DNA of 64,000 nucleotides from the NCBI GenBank assembly GCA_026388335.1, contig JAPLJZ010000079.1:2586-66585 (forward strand), in the 5' to 3' direction. Source of the DNA: Deltaproteobacteria bacterium (GTDB taxonomy: Bacteria; Desulfobacterota; Syntrophia; Syntrophales; UBA8958). The position numbers and the translations under genes are program-made. Of the stretch, positions 56,175 through 64,000 are shown piece after piece. The notes under the pieces are model-generated. The model made no database searches and was not told the DNA's origin. It saw only the letters and a program-made list of their open reading frames with translations. Position 1 is the first letter of the stretch; each line of letters starts with the position of its first letter.

Positions 56175-56519
56175 ATGGAGAAAGACCCTGTAAGGCGGAT
56201 AAATACAGACATTGATCATGCTGATCGCAAGACAGAGAAGGAGATTCTTGATCCTTTTCAGAGAGTGAATCCTTTCGTCTCATTTCGGTATTCCTCCCGG
56301 GAAATATCGTCTGTTGGCGGCAAAACGTATGTGAAAGCCAAAGAAAAGAGCTTTGTAGATGGCAAGTTCAAGTCGGAGGAGTTTGAGGGAGTGGCGCCGG
56401 GGAATCTTTATGGCAATATGGCCACAGAAATGCAGAAGATGTTTTTCGGGCAGATAGCGTCAGTGATAGGTATGTTTTCAGCATTTTTGCCAAGCGTGAA
56501 GAAGGATAAGAGAGATTGA
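56175..56519 (+). CDS. Hypothetical protein
   Basis: 114-aa ORF with a GAGGA-type RBS and a hydrophobic C-terminal segment (FFGQIASVIGMFSAFLP). I recognise no motif. Confidence 0.4.
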   Translation: MEKDPVRRINTDIDHADRKTEKEILDPFQRVNPFVSFRYSSREISSVGGKTYVKAKEKSFVDGKFKSEEFEGVAPGNLYGNMATEMQKMFFGQIASVIGMFSAFLPSVKKDKRD

Positions 56520-56755: not shown

Positions 56756-56851
56756 CCTTCCCGAAGTCAGACACTAAACGGTCAATAGATCTCTCTCAAG
56801 GTTCCTTAGAAGTTCAATGTTTCTTCACGAATAACCGCACTGGAGGTGCCC

Positions 56852-58360
56852 ATGGCTAAGCCGTACGTCACTCGCACCTTAGGCCCGATCCATTTTGAGG
56901 ACCTTGATCCTCATAGGTTCGAGGACCTCATCCGTCAACTTGTCTATGACTTCAGGCAATGGCAATCAATTGAATCAACGGGACGAGGTGGTGCAGACGA
57001 TGGCTTTGATATTCGCGCTTACGAGGTACTGCCGGTTGCAGAACCTACAACAAACGACGAAGGTGAGCAGGAAGATGCTCCTCATCCAATGGAGGGTAAT
57101 CTATGGATGATTCAATGCAAGCGTGAAAGGGAACTTGGCCCAAAGAGAGTCGAGGCTATCATCAAAGATGCAATGAATCCCTATGCTCTACCTTACGGCT
57201 ATATCTTGGCGGCTCCAGCAAATTTCTCGAAAGCTGCGCACGATAAGTTTAGAGAGGAGCTTAGAAACCACGGCGTAATGGAGTTCTATTTGTGGGGCGC
57301 TGGTGAGCTTGAAGACATGCTTTACCAGCCAAGGAACGACCACATTCTATTTGCCTTTTTCGGCATTTCACTGATTAGTCGCAGGCGATCAAGAACAACC
57401 GAAATTCGTGCCACGGTCAACGCGAAGAACAAGCTCCTAAGGGCTTTAGGTGATAATCCACATCATCAGTCCGTGCTGGTGCGCGATCTGAAGGATATCA
57501 ACTATCCGTATGAGGACGACTGTGAGGACTTCGAAGAACACCCTCGATGGAAGCAATACTCGGCTGTTGCGTTCTATCCTCTTGGGCTTATCGTTTCCAT
57601 TGGGAGGTATTACGCATACATCGACAGAACGAAAGGCGAGTGGGATTTCACAAAGGTCGTGAACAACGTCAGGAACATCCATGGTCATCAAAGGCGCCGT
57701 GACGTTGAGAAAGAGGAACTAAGAAACGCCGTTCAGGGATTCTGGGAGCAGATCCCTCACGCCAAGCAAACCACATACGTGCGAGATGGGCTCATTAGGT
57801 TCGACTCAATTGCTTTCATCGACGACAAAGGCGATAGCGAATACAAATGCCCGCATTTGTTTGTTGACTTCCATATAAAACGTGGGCCATTCTCCGCCTT
57901 CTTCGAGTACCTTGAGATAAATGAGCACCATAGTGAATCTCTCAAGGGGTTGAAGCGCGCCAAAATTTTTCCGAAGACCTTCCCGAAACCGAGCTTTGGG
58001 ACAGTTCACAAAGAAAGGCTAATCGTACTTGACGATAGCACGCGCGCGACTCTTAAGCACAATAGGGGAGGAATTACACTCTACGACTCAGATAAGAAGT
58101 ATGCGTACTTAAAGCCTGCTGATGTCATCGGTGTTGAGAAGACAGAAGACAAGGATGGGAAGAAAACTCTCCTCAAGATAACCAATATCAGAGTGGCTAC
58201 AGGGAAGGAACTGCTGGACTCATGTAACGATGATCCGCCGCTAAGACGAGAGATCGAGAATCAATTAGGTCGAGAGCTGAAACTGGGGGAAGAGATCCAG
58301 GTTATAGAGGCACTGGCAATTTGCGACTGGCAAATAGAGCAAAACCGACCAGTAGTCTGA
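56852..58360 (+). CDS. Mrr-like PD-(D/E)xK restriction-endonuclease-domain protein with a roughly 370-aa uncharacterised C-terminal region
   Basis: I chose the ATG at 56852 (GGAGG RBS 5 nt upstream). The N-terminus follows the Mrr_cat pattern: FEDLDPHRFEDLIRQLVYDF...GRGGADDGFDIRAY...NLWMIQCKRER. I recognise nothing in the rest. Confidence 0.7.
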   Translation: MAKPYVTRTLGPIHFEDLDPHRFEDLIRQLVYDFRQWQSIESTGRGGADDGFDIRAYEVLPVAEPTTNDEGEQEDAPHPMEGNLWMIQCKRERELGPKRVEAIIKDAMNPYALPYGYILAAPANFSKAAHDKFREELRNHGVMEFYLWGAGELEDMLYQPRNDHILFAFFGISLISRRRSRTTEIRATVNAKNKLLRALGDNPHHQSVLVRDLKDINYPYEDDCEDFEEHPRWKQYSAVAFYPLGLIVSIGRYYAYIDRTKGEWDFTKVVNNVRNIHGHQRRRDVEKEELRNAVQGFWEQIPHAKQTTYVRDGLIRFDSIAFIDDKGDSEYKCPHLFVDFHIKRGPFSAFFEYLEINEHHSESLKGLKRAKIFPKTFPKPSFGTVHKERLIVLDDSTRATLKHNRGGITLYDSDKKYAYLKPADVIGVEKTEDKDGKKTLLKITNIRVATGKELLDSCNDDPPLRREIENQLGRELKLGEEIQVIEALAICDWQIEQNRPVV

Positions 58361-58766
58361 ACACTTTGGTAACCTGAAGCATCTTGTGGAGGTGCTCAGG
58401 GACAGTAAAACCGATTTTATTAAGCTTGAGTTTTCACAGCGTGGTGGCGAAACAATGATTTTCCCACGTAAGGACATGGTCAACTCCACTGAAGAGATTT
58501 TGACGGACAACGGAATTCGCAGTCAGGGCTCGCCGGATACGCTGGCAGTATGGAACAGCAAGCCGTCTCAATAAGCTCTTCATATGAATAGACAAATGAT
58601 AAAGAGGGGAGTAACGAAAGGAATTACGGATTACCTGCTTGTAACGGCCTGATACTTTACATTTTATTTTGAAAAAAGACACCCATCCTTATGCTTTTAT
58701 AATGAATTAAGACCAGACTAATCTCAAAGCATGGCTTTCATCCAATAGAAAACACCAATTCATGCA

Positions 58767-61700
58767 TCACTTGATCTGATACACTCTTTCTTTAAAGCAC
58801 ACTAATCCTCTCGATGTTTCAGATCCAAAATTATCAAGAAATTCATTACTGACATTAATAACAAAAGTAAAATGCGTAGCATCCTCTCTTTTGCGAAGCG
58901 TGGGAAGATCCCAACCTGTAATTTCTATTTCTGAGTCATCGGTCTCAATTCTCCATATCCATCTGCCATGTCGTGGTAGATTTTTTAAGTCTTCGAGAGG
59001 GTCCCACAACCATATAATATTTTGATCATTCTCAGCATACCCAGGCCGCATTAACACCATCCAGTATTTTATTTTGTGATCTTTAGCCTTAGACACTTCT
59101 CCTTCAGACCAAAATATTTCACCTGCTTCAACATGTTTTACCTCAACATGGTATTTGCCGAAATTTGGATGCGATAGAACGATATCACTCTCGCGTTTTA
59201 AATTATCTCTTTCAGACTGACCACTAACAGACCAATCAGAGGTTGATAGCAGGTCAGATATTTTTATTCTCATCCAATTTTCCGCATTCTCTCCCTTTTC
59301 GCGTCTGCTTTGGTTTACTGAAGAACTGGTTGTGGTGGTTCCAGTTCTTTTCTTTTTTGGTTCAGATATGACTTCACTTATAGGCAATTCTTCTGTGATC
59401 TCATTTTGTGTATCATTTTCGTTATGATCTCCATTTTGTATAACCTCTTCCGACACTATTCGAGCATTATGTCTTTTATGGTCAGTAATTACAGCGTCTT
59501 TGAAATCACTTTCTAAGTCTTCAATCGCTGATTCAGGTACTCCAAGATCTCGGAGGCGTTGAAGGACTTCACTACTATCTCTTGCACGAAGAAGATTCTC
59601 AAATAGATTCGATAGATCTTTCCGGGTCTGCCTCTGCATGAGAGCTAATCCTAAGGCCTCCCATTTTCTCGCTCTATCCAGTAAAATTAGATCATTTTGT
59701 TTCCAATTTCTGACACTTGGAGCTGAGATTATTTGTTCTTCTTTGATAATTCTCAATCGCAAGTTATCAACAGCAAGTATGTTCAGGTTCTCTGGCTTTG
59801 GAAGATTGGCAAACCCGGAAACCACCTTTAAAGAATTGTAACGTTCACCATATCTCTGCCGAATGATACTAGTCGTATCCTGGTCTTCAGTATAATAATG
59901 AGGCTCCACATGCACTATTGTTGATAGCGGCTTTATTGTATACCAATCAGCAGCTTTCTTCCCTTGTTCCTGTTCCAAAACAAAGATATTAAATCTGCGT
60001 AACAGTTCGATCCGCGTATTAGGTTCGGCAAGATAAGGTTCGTCAAGCCAGTAGATATCAGAAGAATTGAAATCGATTTGTTCAATTTTGCTCCCCTGAT
60101 CCCATTTTAAGCAAGGAATATTAGAAATTTCATCAAACCATTCAGGCTTTTCATCGTGTATATCAAAGAAACTCCTATAAAGCATTCGAGTAGCTCGTAT
60201 TGCTACATCTTGGTCTATATTACATTGCAGTGCCTGGGGCAGCTGCTCGATCCATTCTTTCCAAATCATTTCACCAGGAAGAGGGAGTGTTTCCCTGACT
60301 CCAAGCATTTGTGTGAGGAAAGTTGCAAGATCGCGGCCCTCCTGTCCATCGGGGACTTTAATGTTTATTTCTGGAAGAAGCCCTCCTATACCTTTTCCGG
60401 GCATATATGCTTTATCTATCGGTACTCTTTGCTGATTATCCAAGATGCTTTGCTTACATGGCATCCATGGAAAATTCTCCACCTGCCAAGACGCGAATGA
60501 CTTTAGTTGGCCTGTGTTTCTTCCATCCCAACCGCCGCCTTTCTGGAATGAGTATTTCATCCTACTGTCCTTGGCTTCTTTTGCTATGGGTCTAATGGAT
60601 ATCAACCTTTCTATTGGGCTTTGAGGCAACGCCTCTGGGAAGAATTCGATTGCCCATTGTTCATGGATTTTGGTATCCCAATCAAACTCAGTTCTCCTAT
60701 TGAAACTTGCCGGATTTAAACTCTTTAGATAACTGCTCCAATCTTCTTCTTGAACCAATGATTGAAAGGGTGATTCTATCCTCCAAGATCCTTGATATCC
60801 GTCAATTTTCCAACCCACGTCATCTGAAGATAATTTACGGATTAATTTAACTTCCCACGATACTCCTGCATAACGTAGGATTTTTTTCCAATAATTACTT
60901 TCTTCGATATCGACGGGCCATTGGCTAGGTTCAATTAAAACGCCACGATCCTTGATACTTATGAAAAATATATCTATGGATTCAGAGGCACCCCAAGATT
61001 TGCCAGCATAACATTGCCAGGAGGGGATCCATCCCTTATCAGTCGGTAAAAATAAGGACTTCCCTAATCTTTCGCGACTGTTATCATTCCATATCGAAAC
61101 AGAATGACCATCATATTTAAGATCTTTTGTCCATAATTGATAAAAATTAAGCACCTCGGCGCCGTGTTGTTGCCACCAGTTAATTTCTTTTTTTGATTCT
61201 ATTGCCGGTATAAGAAAATGTTCTAGCAACTCATTTTTTTTATCATGCAAAAGTCTGCCATATATTATTTCATCCCATATTTTAGACGAACCATCATTTT
61301 CGTTCGATTCAATTTCATTTAAAAATTCTAAATATTCATTATGAAGTGCATAAAATTTTAGCCAATTTGGTAAGTTTAGGTTTGGTTTTATGCGTAACAA
61401 TGGGAACTTGTCTGATAAGCTTTGGGCACTGCCGTTAGCAGTCCACCAACAAGGTATTTCACGGCATATTTTCAAATAATATTCATGTTTTTTGTAAGGA
61501 AAATATTTGAAGAGTTCCTTAATAATTACAAAAAAAGCTTTAAGAGCATTCTGACATTCATCTTTATGCTCATTTTTGCAGTATTTTAGTAGACAAAGGT
61601 ACTGATCATTTTCAAGAGGCTCAGCACCTAAATACTCAAGGGCTTTTTTGAGATTGATATCGTTTTGAATATCTGAATCGATTAGGTTTTGCTCTTTAAT

Positions 61701-62975
61701 TTCATCAGGTTTTAAAACATTCCCTAAATTATATTCCCAGCGTCGTGCTTTAGATGGCGCAACTTTATTTCCACCAACGCAGGATACAAATTTCTTTTGT
61801 CGAAGCACTGATTCAATGCGTTTCCAAAGTGAGTAAGCAATTGTTTCTTTATTAGGCTGATCTTTAGGGAAAAAGGCTTCGATCGCTATTTTTGTCTGAA
61901 CTGAATCAACAATACGCCCCAGAAGCATTTCAAAATGATTGAGAATATCCTCATTACCCGGATCTCTAACATGCTTGCGACTTTGATCAAGATCAAAAGA
62001 TGCGTGGAAAAGAGCTCGGAAGGGCAGGTATTCTTCAGTTGGAAAAAAGGAATACAGAGGAAAAGAGTTTTCCCATGCTTGCACTTCATGTTTTGAGTTC
62101 ATTGGCAAACAACAAGCAACACTGTGACGTTTATCTATACCTTCGGACTTCCAAATATTTACCCAACGACGAAATCTATATGTATCTTGAACAATTTCAT
62201 TTTCAATGATTTTTACAAGGATATCATCATCCTTAATTTCAATATCGCTGCTTCTATCAATTCTCCATTTACGGCTTCGACCATCCTGCCATACAACCTC
62301 AACGATTTTAATGTACTGAGAAAGAAGAAGAAAAAATAAGCTAAGATTATTTAACGTGCTTTCAACTTTTTTCTGCGCAATTTCATCCTTATAAGGTAAT
62401 CTGATAATGGTTGGATATTCATCAACCAAATCTATTATATCTTCGATGTTTTGATTATCATGAGGAATTCGAAACGTAAGTGATGGGGGATCATTAATGC
62501 CTCTTTGATGCAACATTCTCTGGGTATCTGTAGCTGAAAAATAAAAATGAAATGGTTCTGAATATATCTCCGGCTTGTTTGTGATTTCTAGTACTGATTT
62601 GAAACCAAGGCCCTTTATTCCAATAAGGTCGGATGTTGAAGTATTAAGCGGGCACATTGCATCATCAGCATTTTGTAAGAGTTCCCAAAGGAAACGCCCC
62701 CCATAATCAAAACTGACTTCTCTTTCTTGGCTATAATCATCAAGCAATCTGTTTTTATCCCGAAGATATGTTTCTATTTCTTTTTCACGAATCCCTTTAG
62801 GGAGATCGGCATCTGTACATTTACTGTATAAATCAATTGGCTGAGACTTCTTTTTTGTCCCGCGGTAAGAGGCACAGATAGAGATTACCCCTAGCCTGCT
62901 AAATGGCTGCCCTGTGTTTGCGACCAAAAGTGAATCGTGAGTCATTTTTAGAAGGCATTTTCTTTCATTATCCAT
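58767..62975 (-). CDS. Giant NO VEIN-like protein: sacsin-type GHKL ATPase motifs at the N-terminus and a DUF3883-like PD-(D/E)xK module near the C-terminus
   Basis: 1402-aa uninterrupted ORF in AT-rich DNA. The N-box is FLWELLQNADDAM (aa 96-107) and the G2-like box is LIGIKGLGFKSVLEITNKPEIYS (aa 117-139). A G1-like LLVANTGQPFSRLGVISICASYRGTKKK sits at aa 16-43. The C-terminus reads ...RESDIVLSHPNFGKYHVEVKHVEAGEIFWSEGEVSKAKDHKIKYWMVLM. An AGGAAGG RBS and a TATAAT box lie upstream. Confidence 0.75.
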   Translation of the reverse strand: MDNERKCLLKMTHDSLLVANTGQPFSRLGVISICASYRGTKKKSQPIDLYSKCTDADLPKGIREKEIETYLRDKNRLLDDYSQEREVSFDYGGRFLWELLQNADDAMCPLNTSTSDLIGIKGLGFKSVLEITNKPEIYSEPFHFYFSATDTQRMLHQRGINDPPSLTFRIPHDNQNIEDIIDLVDEYPTIIRLPYKDEIAQKKVESTLNNLSLFFLLLSQYIKIVEVVWQDGRSRKWRIDRSSDIEIKDDDILVKIIENEIVQDTYRFRRWVNIWKSEGIDKRHSVACCLPMNSKHEVQAWENSFPLYSFFPTEEYLPFRALFHASFDLDQSRKHVRDPGNEDILNHFEMLLGRIVDSVQTKIAIEAFFPKDQPNKETIAYSLWKRIESVLRQKKFVSCVGGNKVAPSKARRWEYNLGNVLKPDEIKEQNLIDSDIQNDINLKKALEYLGAEPLENDQYLCLLKYCKNEHKDECQNALKAFFVIIKELFKYFPYKKHEYYLKICREIPCWWTANGSAQSLSDKFPLLRIKPNLNLPNWLKFYALHNEYLEFLNEIESNENDGSSKIWDEIIYGRLLHDKKNELLEHFLIPAIESKKEINWWQQHGAEVLNFYQLWTKDLKYDGHSVSIWNDNSRERLGKSLFLPTDKGWIPSWQCYAGKSWGASESIDIFFISIKDRGVLIEPSQWPVDIEESNYWKKILRYAGVSWEVKLIRKLSSDDVGWKIDGYQGSWRIESPFQSLVQEEDWSSYLKSLNPASFNRRTEFDWDTKIHEQWAIEFFPEALPQSPIERLISIRPIAKEAKDSRMKYSFQKGGGWDGRNTGQLKSFASWQVENFPWMPCKQSILDNQQRVPIDKAYMPGKGIGGLLPEINIKVPDGQEGRDLATFLTQMLGVRETLPLPGEMIWKEWIEQLPQALQCNIDQDVAIRATRMLYRSFFDIHDEKPEWFDEISNIPCLKWDQGSKIEQIDFNSSDIYWLDEPYLAEPNTRIELLRRFNIFVLEQEQGKKAADWYTIKPLSTIVHVEPHYYTEDQDTTSIIRQRYGERYNSLKVVSGFANLPKPENLNILAVDNLRLRIIKEEQIISAPSVRNWKQNDLILLDRARKWEALGLALMQRQTRKDLSNLFENLLRARDSSEVLQRLRDLGVPESAIEDLESDFKDAVITDHKRHNARIVSEEVIQNGDHNENDTQNEITEELPISEVISEPKKKRTGTTTTSSSVNQSRREKGENAENWMRIKISDLLSTSDWSVSGQSERDNLKRESDIVLSHPNFGKYHVEVKHVEAGEIFWSEGEVSKAKDHKIKYWMVLMRPGYAENDQNIIWLWDPLEDLKNLPRHGRWIWRIETDDSEIEITGWDLPTLRKREDATHFTFVINVSNEFLDNFGSETSRGLVCFKERVYQIK

Positions 62976-63290
62976 GATACATTACCTTCCTGATAAAATT
63001 AAGAATATTCAATTATACGCCTTCAAATGGTTTAGGATAAAGCATGTCTTAAACTAAGATACTGTTTCGGCACACATAATCCTTTCCTACCTTTTCGGCA
63101 AGCATCAAAGCTTGTTTATTCATCAGATCATGAGCCTTCCTTCCATTTTCAAAGACTATGAGTAGAGCAATATAATGAAAATGTCAAAGAGTCATCCCAA
63201 AGAACACCAGATCCAGCTCTCGCCGATAACCATCATCCATTAAAAACATCATGGCTTCTGGAAATATGATCTCCAAGAATGATGACATAT

Positions 63291-63332
63291 CAAGGTCGGA
63301 TATGTTTCATTAGATGATCATATCCGACCTTG
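63291..63332. repeat. Perfect 14-bp inverted repeat at the truncation point of the transposase remnant
   Basis: caaggtcggatatg, a 14-nt loop, then catatccgaccttg. Confidence 0.7.
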
Positions 63333-63489
63333 GTGTTGATCAACAGCGGCGTGATCTTTTTACTGGTGACTTTCTATACTTTGAAAGAAGCAAAGGTGCT
63401 GATTGAAAAATGGCGACTGGAATACAACACGTTCAGGCCACAGCTCATTGAATTAACGTCCTCCAGCGCCAGAAGCTTGGCTACATTGA
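63333..63489 (+). pseudogene. C-terminal remnant of a DDE (rve/integrase-core) transposase, frameshifted and carrying a premature stop
   Basis: It reads ...FYTLKEAKVLIEKWRLEYNTFRP in one frame and HSSLN*RPPAPEAWLH in the +1 frame. Together these reconstruct the canonical YNxxRPHSSLxYRPPAPE transposase tail. The catalytic core is absent. Confidence 0.7.
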
Positions 63490-63669
63490 AGGGCATAAAA
63501 TTACAGAATCCTAACTTTAAATGTGGTACAAGATTCGGGGCATGTTAAAAGAAAATTGAAAAGATCGTTTCTGTCAACGTGAATGAGACAATCTTATCGT
63601 TTTTGGTGCATCGCGTAGCTGACGGTTCAGCAGGGGGAACGGCACAGATAACGAAGAGAGGTTTTGAAC

Positions 63670-64000
63670 ATGGCCACAATGATCCCTTCCGACATCCTTA
63701 CCTTCACAACACCAGGCGAGCGGGCCTTTTACAGGTTTCTCCAAACCTGTGCCAAGCCGGATGATAGATACATTGCCTGGTATCAGCCGGATATAGCAGG
63801 TCATGAGCCTGATTTCATCCTCTACGCCCAAGACGCAGGATTGGTCATATTCGAGGTTAAGGACTGGTCCCTTGATCAGATCATTGATGCCGATCCCCAA
63901 TTCTTCACTCTGTATATCGAGGGAAAAGAAGAACGGCGCAAGAACCCCGTCCAGCAAATCCGGGACTATTTCGGGCGGGTCATGGACAAGATCAAAAAAG
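63670..64000 (+). CDS. NERD-domain (nuclease-related) protein, N-terminal 110 codons (runs off the window end)
   Basis: Hand translation gives MATMIPSDILTFTTPGERAFYRFLQTCAKPDDRYIAWYQPDIAGHEPDFILYAQDAGLVIFEVKDWSLDQI... This fits the NERD pattern GE..FY..L.......(Y).......G.EPDF.L....G..V.EVKDW. It is absent from the ORF track because no stop codon falls in the window. Confidence 0.65.
   Translation, partial: MATMIPSDILTFTTPGERAFYRFLQTCAKPDDRYIAWYQPDIAGHEPDFILYAQDAGLVIFEVKDWSLDQIIDADPQFFTLYIEGKEERRKNPVQQIRDYFGRVMDKIKK

What the first reader, a model, noticed from the sequence alone, without database searches (positions are those of the whole stretch)
58767..62975. 1402-aa NO VEIN-like protein (sacsin-type GHKL ATPase plus DUF3883-like nuclease) as a likely single-gene conflict system
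The protein combines three features. The first is the highly diagnostic ELLQNADDA N-box and IGxKGLGFKSV box of sacsin/NOV-type Hsp90-like ATPases. The second is about 1000 residues with no motif I can assign. The third is a C-terminal module with D...E-V-K spacing (ESDIV...YHVEVKH...SEGEV...YWMVLM), typical of DUF3883, the NO VEIN C-terminal domain and a restriction-endonuclease-like fold. It is the most AT-rich gene in the window and has its own RBS and -10 box. It lies convergent with the Mrr-like gene. To my knowledge, bacterial proteins with this architecture have not been experimentally tied to a function.
Basis: partly seen in the sequence, partly recalled or inferred. Interest (0 to 1): 0.8.

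Follow-up and report, generated by a model that had tools for sequence, protein, structure and literature searches.

The report
Tiamat-type defence nuclease, rearranged ATPase
This 1402-residue gene is a divergent member of the already-described single-gene anti-phage system Tiamat (an Hsp90/sacsin-like ATPase fused to a DNA-cutting domain), and it belongs to a large, apparently undescribed branch in which two pieces of the ATPase fold have swapped order in the sequence.

Summary
It is the most AT-rich gene in the window (GC 0.381, against 0.481±0.035 for the others). It is not an orphan architecture: seven PADLOC TmtA (Tiamat) profiles match it (best E=2.5e-68). AlphaFold2 and Foldseek show an Hsp90-like N-terminal plus middle domain (aa 1-520). 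They also show about 650 aa of confidently folded sequence with no structural match, a disordered linker, and a C-terminal PD-(D/E)XK nuclease. D1264, E1278 and K1280 are invariant in 112 homologues. Close relatives lie beside BREX, Ssp, type III/IV restriction, GmrSD and NERD/UvrD genes. The neighbouring Mrr-like gene is not a conserved partner, and homology to the 89%-identical copy ends exactly at the gene's borders. The unexpected part is the ATPase. The G1 module (aa 1-45) precedes the N-box helix, whereas TmtA profiles, canonical relatives and sacsin have N-box, then G1, then G2. At least 154 of 176 long homologues share this swap. Verdict: a new variant of a known kind. The mechanism (nucleotide-gated nuclease) is inferred, not shown.

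The parts
58767..62975 (-). Complete TmtA-like (Tiamat family) ORF, 1402 aa plus stop codon
   Evidence: ORF list. PADLOC TmtA PDLC03964 E=2.5e-68, plus six further TmtA models. 557 homologues of about 1400 aa. dN/dS 0.20 against the 89%-identical copy.
62841..62975 (-). Module A, aa 1-45: beta-hairpin, G1-like motif (LLVANTGQPF), helix and invariant K41. It sits N-terminal to the N-box.
   Evidence: Maps to TmtA profile positions 67-107, i.e. after the N-box. Aligns to aa 95-134 of the canonical Agrobacterium TmtA. N20 in 107/112, G22 in 111/112, K41 in 111/112. pLDDT 82-96.
62628..62840 (-). Segment B, aa 46-116: flexible loop, two helices and the N-box helix (ELLQNADDA at 62658-62684)
   Evidence: Maps to TmtA profile positions 16-60. 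E98, N102 and D105 are 112/112. Helices at 55-72, 74-90 and 95-106.
62592..62627 (-). G2 box, aa 117-128 (LIGIKGLGFKSV)
   Evidence: G119, K121, G122 and G124 are 112/112. Aligns to the sacsin SR1 G2 box at 104-127.
61416..62975 (-). Hsp90/sacsin-like N-terminal plus middle-domain module, aa 1-520
   Evidence: AF2 pLDDT 90.5, pTM 0.86. Foldseek PDB top 49 hits are Hsp90/TRAP1/GRP94 (E from 1e-6); sacsin SR1 5v46 is at rank 50.
59478..61415 (-). Conserved middle region, aa 521-1166, of unknown fold and function (candidate sensor or scaffold)
   Evidence: pLDDT mostly above 90. No PDB or BFVD match beyond noise. No Pfam hit. No repeat relationship to the N-terminal module. dN/dS 0.16. Homologous to the same region of canonical TmtA.
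59319..59477 (-). Disordered linker, aa 1167-1219
   Evidence: pLDDT below 50 over model residues 647-699. dN/dS 1.5.
58770..59318 (-). C-terminal NOV_C/DUF3883-type PD-(D/E)XK nuclease domain, aa 1220-1402. The catalytic core D1264...E1278-V-K1280 lies at 59136-59186.
   Evidence: D1264, E1278 and K1280 are 112/112. Foldseek hits are DpnI, Hjc, SPARDA, Bax1 and NucC at prob 0.9-0.99, plus a phage NOV_C protein and resolvases. Pfam NOV_C 21.4 bits vs a cut-off of 22.1. Weak hit to the TmtA profile C-terminus at 1450-1508.
62985..63017 (-). Putative RBS (AGGAAGG, 62985-62991) and -10-like TATAAT (63012-63017)
   Evidence: Read directly from the sequence. Not statistically supported. DNA homology to the 89%-identical copy starts at 62991, which is at the RBS.
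56846..58360 (+). Neighbouring Mrr_cat-domain protein (504 aa), convergent. An island co-resident, not part of the system.
   Evidence: Pfam Mrr_cat E=2.4e-4, 21.6 vs 21 bits. No homologue in 38 related loci. Present only on contigs carrying the identical TmtA-like gene.
63670..64000 (+). 5' end of a divergent NERD + UvrD-type helicase gene (613 aa, runs off the window). A second island co-resident.
   Evidence: Translation matches the L041 gene. PADLOC C3a187 'NERD+UvrD' E=6e-81. Pfam NERD, UvrD-helicase and UvrD_C.

Best explanation
The gene encodes a stand-alone, horizontally mobile defence protein of the Tiamat (TmtA) family. It has four parts. The N-terminal Hsp90/sacsin-like GHKL module (aa 1-520) is the nucleotide-dependent switch. 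A conserved region of about 650 aa, of unknown fold, is the likely sensor or scaffold. A disordered tether of about 50 aa follows. A NOV_C-type PD-(D/E)XK nuclease is the effector. The proposed mechanism is inferred, not shown. On sensing an invading element, nucleotide binding at the Bergerat fold would drive the dimerisation or clamping typical of GHKL proteins. That would license the tethered nuclease to nick or cut DNA. The window protein belongs to a large clade in which the G1 strand-helix module has moved in front of the N-box helix. The motif order is therefore G1, N-box, G2 instead of the canonical N-box, G1, G2.
For: Family: seven TmtA profiles match, best E=2.5e-68 over aa 114-1203. 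Canonical relatives score up to 932 bits on the same model. Fold: the Hsp90-like N-terminal plus middle module is modelled at pLDDT 90.5 with Foldseek E about 1e-6. The C-terminal half gives only PD-(D/E)XK hits. Active sites: E98, N102, D105, G119, K121, G122, G124 and D1264, E1278, K1280 are invariant in 112 sequences. Selection: dN/dS is 0.12-0.21 in the folded parts and 1.5 in the linker. Stand-alone and mobile: homology to the 89%-identical copy covers only window 58766-62991 and the flanks are unrelated. GC is 0.381 against 0.481 for the other genes, and an IS remnant lies next door. Distribution is patchy across many bacterial phyla and archaea. Defence context in all 8 close-relative loci: Mrr-like plus NERD/UvrD; BrxL/PglZ/PglX; SspBCD; type III R-M plus Mrr plus NERD; GmrSD and a FokI/Mrr-type protein; a DpdB/DndB-like protein; PDC-S44. 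Effector precedent: the NOV_C domain of HmaA is a nickase required for defence, with a D/E/K triad (PMC11232893). Permutation.
Against: There is no experimental data for this protein or for any member of the permuted clade. All PADLOC TmtA models have the canonical order, so the validated Tiamat was probably canonical. The G1 motif has Asn (N20) where GHKL ATPases have the adenine-binding Asp, so ATP binding or hydrolysis is not assured. Both Pfam terminal-domain hits are sub-threshold for this sequence. Immediate neighbours of the distant (27-38% identity) homologues are mostly housekeeping genes. No homologues were found on viral contigs, and only one full-length copy on plasmids. I could not inspect the model coordinates, so the three-dimensional placement of the moved module is inferred from confidence scores and motif logic.
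Confidence: 0.7

Rival explanations
1. The GHKL-like module is a non-hydrolytic ligand sensor or pseudo-ATPase. It would bind a nucleotide or other small molecule, or act only as a dimerisation scaffold, and the nuclease would be controlled without an ATPase cycle.
For: Asn replaces the adenine-contacting Asp of G1 in 107/112 sequences. Canonical relatives also have A-N/H. The rewired N-terminus removes the usual N-terminal segment ahead of the N-box. From memory, not checked here: nucleotide binding by the isolated sacsin SR1 domain has been hard to demonstrate.
Against: The general-base Glu (E98), the Mg-binding Asn (N102), D105 and the whole G2 glycine box are invariant in 112 sequences. 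That is not expected of a dead site. R333 in the Hsp90-like middle part is also invariant.
Confidence: 0.2
2. The gene is one component of a multi-gene system, working with the adjacent NERD/UvrD helicase and/or the Mrr-like nuclease.
For: A NERD+UvrD gene lies next to the window gene and next to the 56%-identical homologue on L045. A NERD gene is also near P0007. Tiamat and type IV restriction co-occur in a Pseudomonas hotspot (PMC12629846).
Against: The Mrr-like protein has no homologue in 38 related loci. The NERD/UvrD protein recurs only in L045, with different orientation and spacing. The 89%-identical copy has neither neighbour, and its homology stops at the gene borders. Other close relatives sit beside unrelated systems.
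Confidence: 0.08
3. It is a housekeeping DNA-repair or chromosome-maintenance factor (MutL/MORC-like GHKL with a nuclease), not an immune gene.
For: The GHKL-plus-nuclease logic resembles MutL. Neighbours of many distant homologues are housekeeping genes. Tiamat is reported as almost always chromosomal (PMC10482375). Plant NO VEIN is a developmental gene (cited in PMC11232893).
Against: Distribution is patchy. The base composition is foreign. The gene moves as an exact cassette between unrelated flanks. All 8 close-relative contexts contain defence genes. The match is to profiles built from a defence family.
Confidence: 0.07
4. It is a decaying or inactive relic carried along in an island.
For: It is AT-rich and next to an IS scar. 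The Pfam scores are sub-threshold.
Against: The reading frame is intact at 4.2 kb. Identical copies occur on six contigs from other samples. dN/dS is 0.20. All catalytic residues are intact.
Confidence: 0.02

Closest known systems
Tiamat defence system, protein TmtA (attributed to Millman et al. 2022; PADLOC models PDLC03964-03972)
   Same: Single gene of about 1400 aa. It has an Hsp90/sacsin-like GHKL N-terminus, a long conserved middle region that is homologous through to about aa 1200, and a C-terminal NOV_C PD-(D/E)XK domain. It occurs in defence islands, often beside type IV restriction genes (PMC12629846).
   Different: The first 116 aa are not collinear with any TmtA profile, because the G1 module and the N-box segment are swapped. 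The score is much lower than for canonical relatives: 229 against 261-932 bits on PDLC03964. The C-terminal domain matches the profile only weakly. No member of this clade is known to have been tested.
Sacsin repeating region SR1 / Hsp90 N-terminal and middle domains (PDB 5v44-5v47; Hsp90, TRAP1, GRP94)
   Same: N-box (ELxQNAxDA) and G2 box (GxxGxGF) sequence motifs. Overall fold of aa 1-520. Non-Asp G1 as in sacsin.
   Different: In sacsin the N-box and G2 are about 60 aa apart with G1 between them. Here they are about 12 aa apart and G1 lies upstream. There is no chaperone context, and the protein is fused to a nuclease.
HmaA of the Hma system (SNF2 helicase fused to NOV_C)
   Same: C-terminal NOV_C domain with a D...ExK triad. 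In HmaA this domain is a nickase essential for anti-phage defence (PMC11232893). The canonical TmtA P0209 also hits the HmaA C-terminus.
   Different: The motor is an SF2 helicase, not a GHKL module. The window protein's own C-terminus did not reach the HmaA model.
Plant NO VEIN (source of the Pfam NOV_C name)
   Same: A combination of a sacsin-like ATPase region and a NOV_C domain. Tiamat HMMs pick up plant genome sequences in metagenomes (PMC12409356).
   Different: It is a eukaryotic developmental protein that is much longer. It was not compared directly here.
MutL / MORC-type GHKL proteins coupled to nucleases
   Same: A nucleotide-driven GHKL dimerisation switch controlling DNA transactions. 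This is the basis of the proposed mechanism.
   Different: No sequence-level membership. The middle and C-terminal domains differ, and those proteins have the canonical motif order.

Membership tests
Tiamat / TmtA | Significant match to TmtA profile HMMs | tested here: met
   PDLC03964 E=2.5e-68 (229 bits), aa 114-1203 against profile positions 107-1181 of 1538. Six other TmtA models also match.
Tiamat / TmtA | Collinear, near full-length match including the N-terminal ATPase motifs | tested here: not met
   The native N-terminus splits into 3 stretches (118 bits). A re-ordered B+A+C construct matches in one stretch (153 bits, E=2.5e-45). Segment A maps to profile positions 67-107 and segment B to 16-60. 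Canonical relatives match from profile position 6-13 onward.
Tiamat / TmtA | Architecture: GHKL-like N-terminus, long middle region, C-terminal PD-(D/E)XK (NOV_C) | tested here: met
   The C-terminus hits TmtA profile positions 1450-1508 at E=0.0034.
Tiamat / TmtA | Single-gene system with no conserved partner | tested here: met
   Neighbours differ in every close-relative locus. The Mrr-like neighbour is absent from 38 loci. Homology to the 89%-identical copy ends at the gene borders.
Tiamat / TmtA | Protection against phage when expressed | not testable with these tools
   Needs wet-lab work. The literature in the library only lists Tiamat as a Millman 2022 system of unknown mechanism (PMC12926258, PMC10482375).
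GHKL (Bergerat-fold) ATPase, sacsin/Hsp90 type | N-box with catalytic Glu and Mg-binding Asn (ExxxNxxD) | tested here: met
   E98, N102 and D105 are 112/112. They align to the sacsin N-box.
GHKL (Bergerat-fold) ATPase, sacsin/Hsp90 type | G1 box DxGxG with the adenine-binding Asp | tested here: not met
   The motif is A19-N20-x-G22-x-P24-F25. Asn is present in 107/112 and Ser in 4/112, with no Asp. Canonical TmtA relatives also have N or H.
GHKL (Bergerat-fold) ATPase, sacsin/Hsp90 type | G2 glycine-rich box | tested here: met
   G119, K121, G122, G124 and F125 are 112/112.
GHKL (Bergerat-fold) ATPase, sacsin/Hsp90 type | Motif order N-box, then G1, then G2 | tested here: not met
   The order here is G1 (aa 16-25), N-box (98-106), G2 (117-128). 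154 of 176 homologues share this order, with N-to-G2 spacing of 14-28 aa against 58-62 aa in canonical relatives.
GHKL (Bergerat-fold) ATPase, sacsin/Hsp90 type | Fold similarity to a solved GHKL N-terminal plus middle module | tested here: met
   Foldseek finds Hsp90, TRAP1 and GRP94 at E 1e-6 to 3e-4 with prob 1.0. TM is only about 0.3 because these are multi-domain proteins. Sacsin SR1 scores E=4e-3.
GHKL (Bergerat-fold) ATPase, sacsin/Hsp90 type | ATP binding and hydrolysis | not testable with these tools
   Needs a biochemical assay.
NOV_C / DUF3883 (PF13020), PD-(D/E)XK superfamily | Pfam PF13020 match above the gathering score | tested here: inconclusive
   16.7 bits for the whole protein and 21.4 bits for the isolated domain, against a cut-off of 22.1. 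Many homologues and canonical relatives pass, e.g. P0209 at 64.5 bits.
NOV_C / DUF3883 (PF13020), PD-(D/E)XK superfamily | Catalytic D...(D/E)xK triad | tested here: met
   D1264, E1278 and K1280 are 112/112. The downstream position 1293 is E in 66 and Q in 46 sequences.
NOV_C / DUF3883 (PF13020), PD-(D/E)XK superfamily | Restriction-endonuclease-like fold | tested here: met
   The top PDB hits are all PD-(D/E)XK enzymes (DpnI, Hjc, SPARDA, Bax1, NucC) at prob 0.85-0.99 and E 0.01-0.1. BFVD hits include resolvases and a phage NOV_C protein.
Two-gene system with the adjacent Mrr-like gene | Conserved co-occurrence of the two genes | tested here: not met
   tblastn with the 504-aa protein finds nothing in 38 related loci. 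It is found only on contigs with the identical TmtA-like gene.

The most novel reading that the evidence does not exclude
The clade represented here is a distinct, unrecognised subtype of Tiamat. In it, a natural sequence-order permutation of the Bergerat fold places the G1 strand-helix module ahead of the N-box helix. This rewires the N-terminal strap and lid elements that normally couple nucleotide binding to GHKL dimerisation, so the switch controlling the nuclease would work differently from canonical TmtA. As far as the searchable literature shows, it would also be the first described natural permutation of the otherwise fixed N, G1, G2 motif order of GHKL proteins.
Probability: 0.3. Interest if true: 0.65.

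Novelty: new variant of a known kind. Interest (0 to 1): 0.45.

Why it matters
Tiamat is a widespread single-gene defence system whose mechanism is still listed as unknown. This locus adds three useful things. First, invariant catalytic residues in both the GHKL-like and nuclease domains give direct mutational targets. Second, there is a natural rewiring experiment: canonical and permuted proteins share the same middle and nuclease regions but differ in Bergerat-fold connectivity. Comparing them could show which N-terminal elements couple nucleotide state to nuclease licensing. Third, current TmtA profiles cover this large clade only non-collinearly (816 representatives at E≤1e-3, mostly permuted among the closest 176). 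Defence-system annotators may therefore under-call or mis-score it. The conserved middle region of about 650 aa, which has no structural relative, is a candidate new sensor module.

Tried and rejected
1. A second, degenerate sacsin-like repeat in the middle region. The idea came from weak Hsp90 Foldseek hits at E about 0.2. hhalign of the N-terminal profile against the middle profile gives probability below 1%, so I rejected it.
2. The Mrr-like gene as a functional partner. It has no homologue in 38 loci, so I rejected it.
3. Phage origin. No relative was found in IMG/VR. BFVD structural hits are only generic PD-(D/E)XK proteins.
4. Plasmid carriage. There are 10 weak hits and only one full-length hit, in Mesorhizobium. 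These were useful only as a source of canonical relatives.
5. Direct PDB sequence match. There is none for the single sequence. The family profile gives only short sacsin and TRAP1 motif hits.
6. Own promoter and terminator. Scans are not above the shuffled expectation.
7. tRNA-linked integration. There are no tRNA genes in the window.
8. A duplication intermediate for the permutation. None of 176 homologues carries two G1 modules.
9. Literature on the Tiamat mechanism or on permuted GHKL folds. The Millman preprint text does not name Tiamat. The final paper and the sacsin SR1 paper are not held. No paper combines 'permut*', Bergerat and GHKL. Three literature searches were too broad to help.
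10. Neighbour enrichment among distant homologues. The results are mixed, with some Septu, mREase_IV, BrxL and GmrSD genes among many housekeeping genes. I did not run the prepared far-gene control set, so no enrichment statistic is claimed.

Full report
**Observation**

The ORF exists as described: 58767..62975 on the minus strand, ATG start, 1402 aa. The quoted motifs are all present:
- ELLQNADDA at aa 98-106
- IGIKGLGFKSV at aa 118-128
- ESDIV...YHVEVKH...SEGEV...YWMVLM at aa 1262-1309

Its GC content is 0.381, the lowest of 47 ORFs in the window; the others average 0.481 with sd 0.035. It is convergent with a 504-aa ORF that carries a borderline Mrr_cat domain. An AGGAAGG RBS and a TATAAT are visible upstream, but consensus promoter and terminator scans of the region are no better than shuffled sequence.

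**What it is**

Pfam alone is weak for this sequence. SACS scores E=2.4e-4 and NOV_C scores E=0.008, both below their gathering scores. NCBIfam's sacsin N-terminal model scores 47.9 against a cut-off of 50.

PADLOC is unambiguous. Seven TmtA models, from the single-gene Tiamat defence system, match. The best is E=2.5e-68 over aa 114-1203.

The library's literature says the following:
- Tiamat is one of the systems from Millman et al. 2022, with unknown mechanism (PMC12926258, PMC10482375).
- It is a single-gene PD-(D/E)XK system (bioRxiv 10.1101/2024.10.26.620412).
- In Pseudomonas it is concentrated in an island hotspot together with type IV restriction (PMC12629846).

The details of the original phage assays are from my memory. 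I could not read them, because the preprint text does not name Tiamat and the final paper is not held.

**Family and conservation**

There are 557 homologues in the 90%-clustered database, almost all about 1400 aa and full length. In the 50%-clustered library there are 816 representatives at E≤1e-3. Genome hits span Planctomycetota, Brocadiales, Nitrospinota, Binatia, Latescibacterota, Sphingomonadales, Bradyrhizobium, Desulfobacteraceae, and archaea (Methanoperedens, Woesearchaeota). This is a patchy distribution that suggests horizontal transfer.

In a 112-sequence alignment the following are invariant or nearly so:
- N-box: E98, N102, D105 in 112/112
- G2 box: G119, K121, G122, G124 in 112/112
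- Nuclease triad: D1264, E1278, K1280 in 112/112
- G1 module: N20 in 107/112, G22 and K41 in 111/112

Against the 89%-identical copy, dN/dS is 0.20 overall. It is 0.12 for the GHKL module, 0.16 for the middle region, 0.21 for the nuclease, and 1.5 for the linker.

**Structure**

AlphaFold2 with the family alignment gives confident models.
- **aa 1-520:** pLDDT 90.5, pTM 0.86. Foldseek against the PDB returns Hsp90, TRAP1 and GRP94 N-terminal plus middle domains for the top 49 hits (E from 1e-6). Sacsin SR1 is at rank 50.
- **aa 521-1402:** pLDDT 87.5, with a disordered stretch at aa 1167-1219. Its only meaningful PDB matches are PD-(D/E)XK enzymes: DpnI, archaeal Hjc resolvases, SPARDA, Bax1 and NucC, at probabilities 0.85-0.99. 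BFVD gives resolvases, Mrr-type enzymes and a phage 'NO VEIN C-terminal domain' protein.
- **aa 521-1166:** confidently folded and under purifying selection, but with no structural or Pfam relative. It is not a degenerate repeat of the N-terminal module.

The NOV_C domain has an experimental precedent. In HmaA it is a nickase whose D/E/K triad is required for phage defence (PMC11232893).

**The unexpected feature**

In GHKL proteins the nucleotide-binding motifs come in the order N-box, G1, G2. Here the N-box (aa 98-106) and G2 (aa 117-128) are about 12 aa apart. The G1 module (a beta-hairpin, 'LLVANTGQPF', a helix and an invariant Lys) occupies aa 1-45, ahead of the N-box. Four independent tests agree.

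1. **Canonical relatives.** Proteins annotated 'DUF3883 domain-containing protein' on an Agrobacterium plasmid and a Haloferax plasmid have N-box, then 'CVANTGQPF', then 'LIGAKGLGF'. Window segment A (aa 1-45) aligns to their residues 95-134 and 63-101. Segment B (aa 46-116) aligns to residues 57-86 and 6-59. Re-ordering the window protein as B+A+C raises the collinear score from 94 to 170 and from 130 to 197.
2. **PADLOC TmtA profiles.** Against PDLC03964, segment A maps to profile positions 67-107 and segment B to 16-60. The other TmtA models that match both segments show the same order. The re-ordered construct matches as one stretch (153 bits, E=2.5e-45). The native order breaks into three stretches (118 bits).
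3. **Sacsin SR1.** In sacsin SR1 the two boxes are 60 aa apart. In this family's profile they are 9 aa apart.
4. **Census.** Among 176 homologues of at least 1000 aa, 154 have G1 before the N-box, with N-to-G2 spacing of 14-28 aa. Seven or eight are canonical, with spacing of 58-62 aa. None has two G1 modules. Most of the 15 unclassified ones have the short spacing.

Canonical relatives are bona fide TmtA: they score up to 932 bits on PDLC03964, collinear from profile position 6. They share homology with the window protein from G2 to about aa 1160. The secondary-structure order of the model fits a fold in which a compact module was re-attached through a flexible loop (aa 35-54, pLDDT about 68). 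That order is hairpin 6-20, helix 27-34, loop, helices 55-72 and 74-90, N-box helix 95-106, G2, helix 123-130, strands. I could not inspect the coordinates, so this last point is an inference. A full-text search found no paper combining permutation, Bergerat and GHKL. That is weak evidence that the swap is undescribed.

**Context**

The identical protein occurs on six short public contigs. One of them (L041) extends past the window. It shows that the ORF starting at 63670 is a 613-aa NERD+UvrD helicase, matching PADLOC candidate C3a187 at E=6e-81. A fragment of an IS-type integrase core lies between the two genes (rve_3, E=2.3e-4).

All eight contexts of close relatives (56-89% identity) contain known or candidate defence genes:

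| Locus | Neighbouring defence genes |
|---|---|
| Window / L041 | Mrr-like protein, NERD/UvrD helicase |
| L001 | BrxL, PglZ, PglX, plus a transposase |
| L046 | SspB, SspC, SspD |
| L047 | Type III R-M, Mrr, NERD |
| L049 | FokI/Mrr-type protein, GmrSD-like protein |
| L045 | NERD, UvrD, GajB-like helicase |
| L002 | DpdB/DndB-like protein |
| L051 | DUF429 = PDC-S44 |

No neighbour is conserved. The Mrr-like protein has no homologue in 38 related loci. DNA homology between the window and L051 is confined to 58766-62991, from the stop codon to the RBS, at 92% identity. The gene therefore moves as an exact single-gene cassette. Neighbours of distant homologues are mostly housekeeping genes with a sprinkling of defence genes. 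I did not run a control set, so I claim no enrichment statistic there.

**Mechanism (inferred)**

The GHKL-like module would act as a nucleotide-dependent dimerisation switch. The large middle region would sense or bind the invader, probably DNA. The tethered PD-(D/E)XK domain would nick or cleave.

What is shown: family membership, folds, invariant catalytic residues, purifying selection, stand-alone mobility and island context.

What is not shown: nucleotide binding, nuclease activity, the trigger and the phenotype. Nucleotide binding is a real question because G1 has Asn where GHKL ATPases have the adenine-binding Asp.

**Verdict**

The locus is best classed as a new variant of a known kind, because it represents a large TmtA clade with a permuted Bergerat-fold motif order. 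Interest is moderate at 0.45.

Noticed in passing
window 63670-64000 (+), continuing on L041: This is the 5' end of a 613-aa NERD + UvrD-type helicase (PADLOC candidate C3a187, E=6e-81), divergent from the TmtA-like gene. A 52-55% identical NERD and UvrD pair, split into two genes, lies upstream of the 56%-identical homologue on L045.
   Followed up: partly
window 63330-63548 (+): A 72-aa ORF ends in '...KEAKVLIEKWRLEYNTFRPQ' and gives a sub-threshold rve_3 integrase-core hit (E=2.3e-4). It looks like a transposase C-terminal remnant, i.e. an IS scar in the 694-bp spacer between the TmtA-like and helicase genes.
   Followed up: partly
window 58766-62991 vs L051:2301-6526: Nucleotide homology (92%) to the contig carrying the 89%-identical protein starts at the RBS and stops one base past the stop codon. 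The flanks are unrelated, so the exchange breakpoints are cassette-precise.
   Followed up: yes
window 56846-58360 (+): In this Mrr_cat-domain protein of 504 aa, only aa 19-137 have a profile match (21.6 vs 21 bits). The remaining roughly 360 aa have no Pfam hit, and there is only a weak PADLOC PDC-M58A hit. It may be an uncharacterised type IV-like restriction protein.
   Followed up: partly
L051:208-915 and L039:2674-3492: A DUF429 protein (PADLOC candidate PDC-S44) lies two genes upstream of the TmtA-like gene. This holds both in the locus of the 89%-identical permuted homologue and on the Agrobacterium plasmid carrying a canonical TmtA. It may be a recurrent association.
   Followed up: no
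window 59319-59477 (-), aa 1167-1219: The disordered acidic/polar linker between the middle region and the nuclease has dN/dS of about 1.5 against the 89%-identical copy. The folded parts have 0.12-0.21.
   Followed up: yes
window 59478-61415 (-), aa 521-1166: About 650 aa are confidently modelled (pLDDT mostly above 90) and contain strongly conserved motifs (VPCWWT, LPTDKGW, CYAGxxW, AGVSWEPK, LPGKGLxGLLPE). There is no PDB, BFVD or Pfam relative.
   Followed up: partly
window 56175-56519 (+): A 114-aa ORF at the left edge of the low-GC stretch has no PADLOC hit. Its function and reality are unknown.
   Followed up: partly
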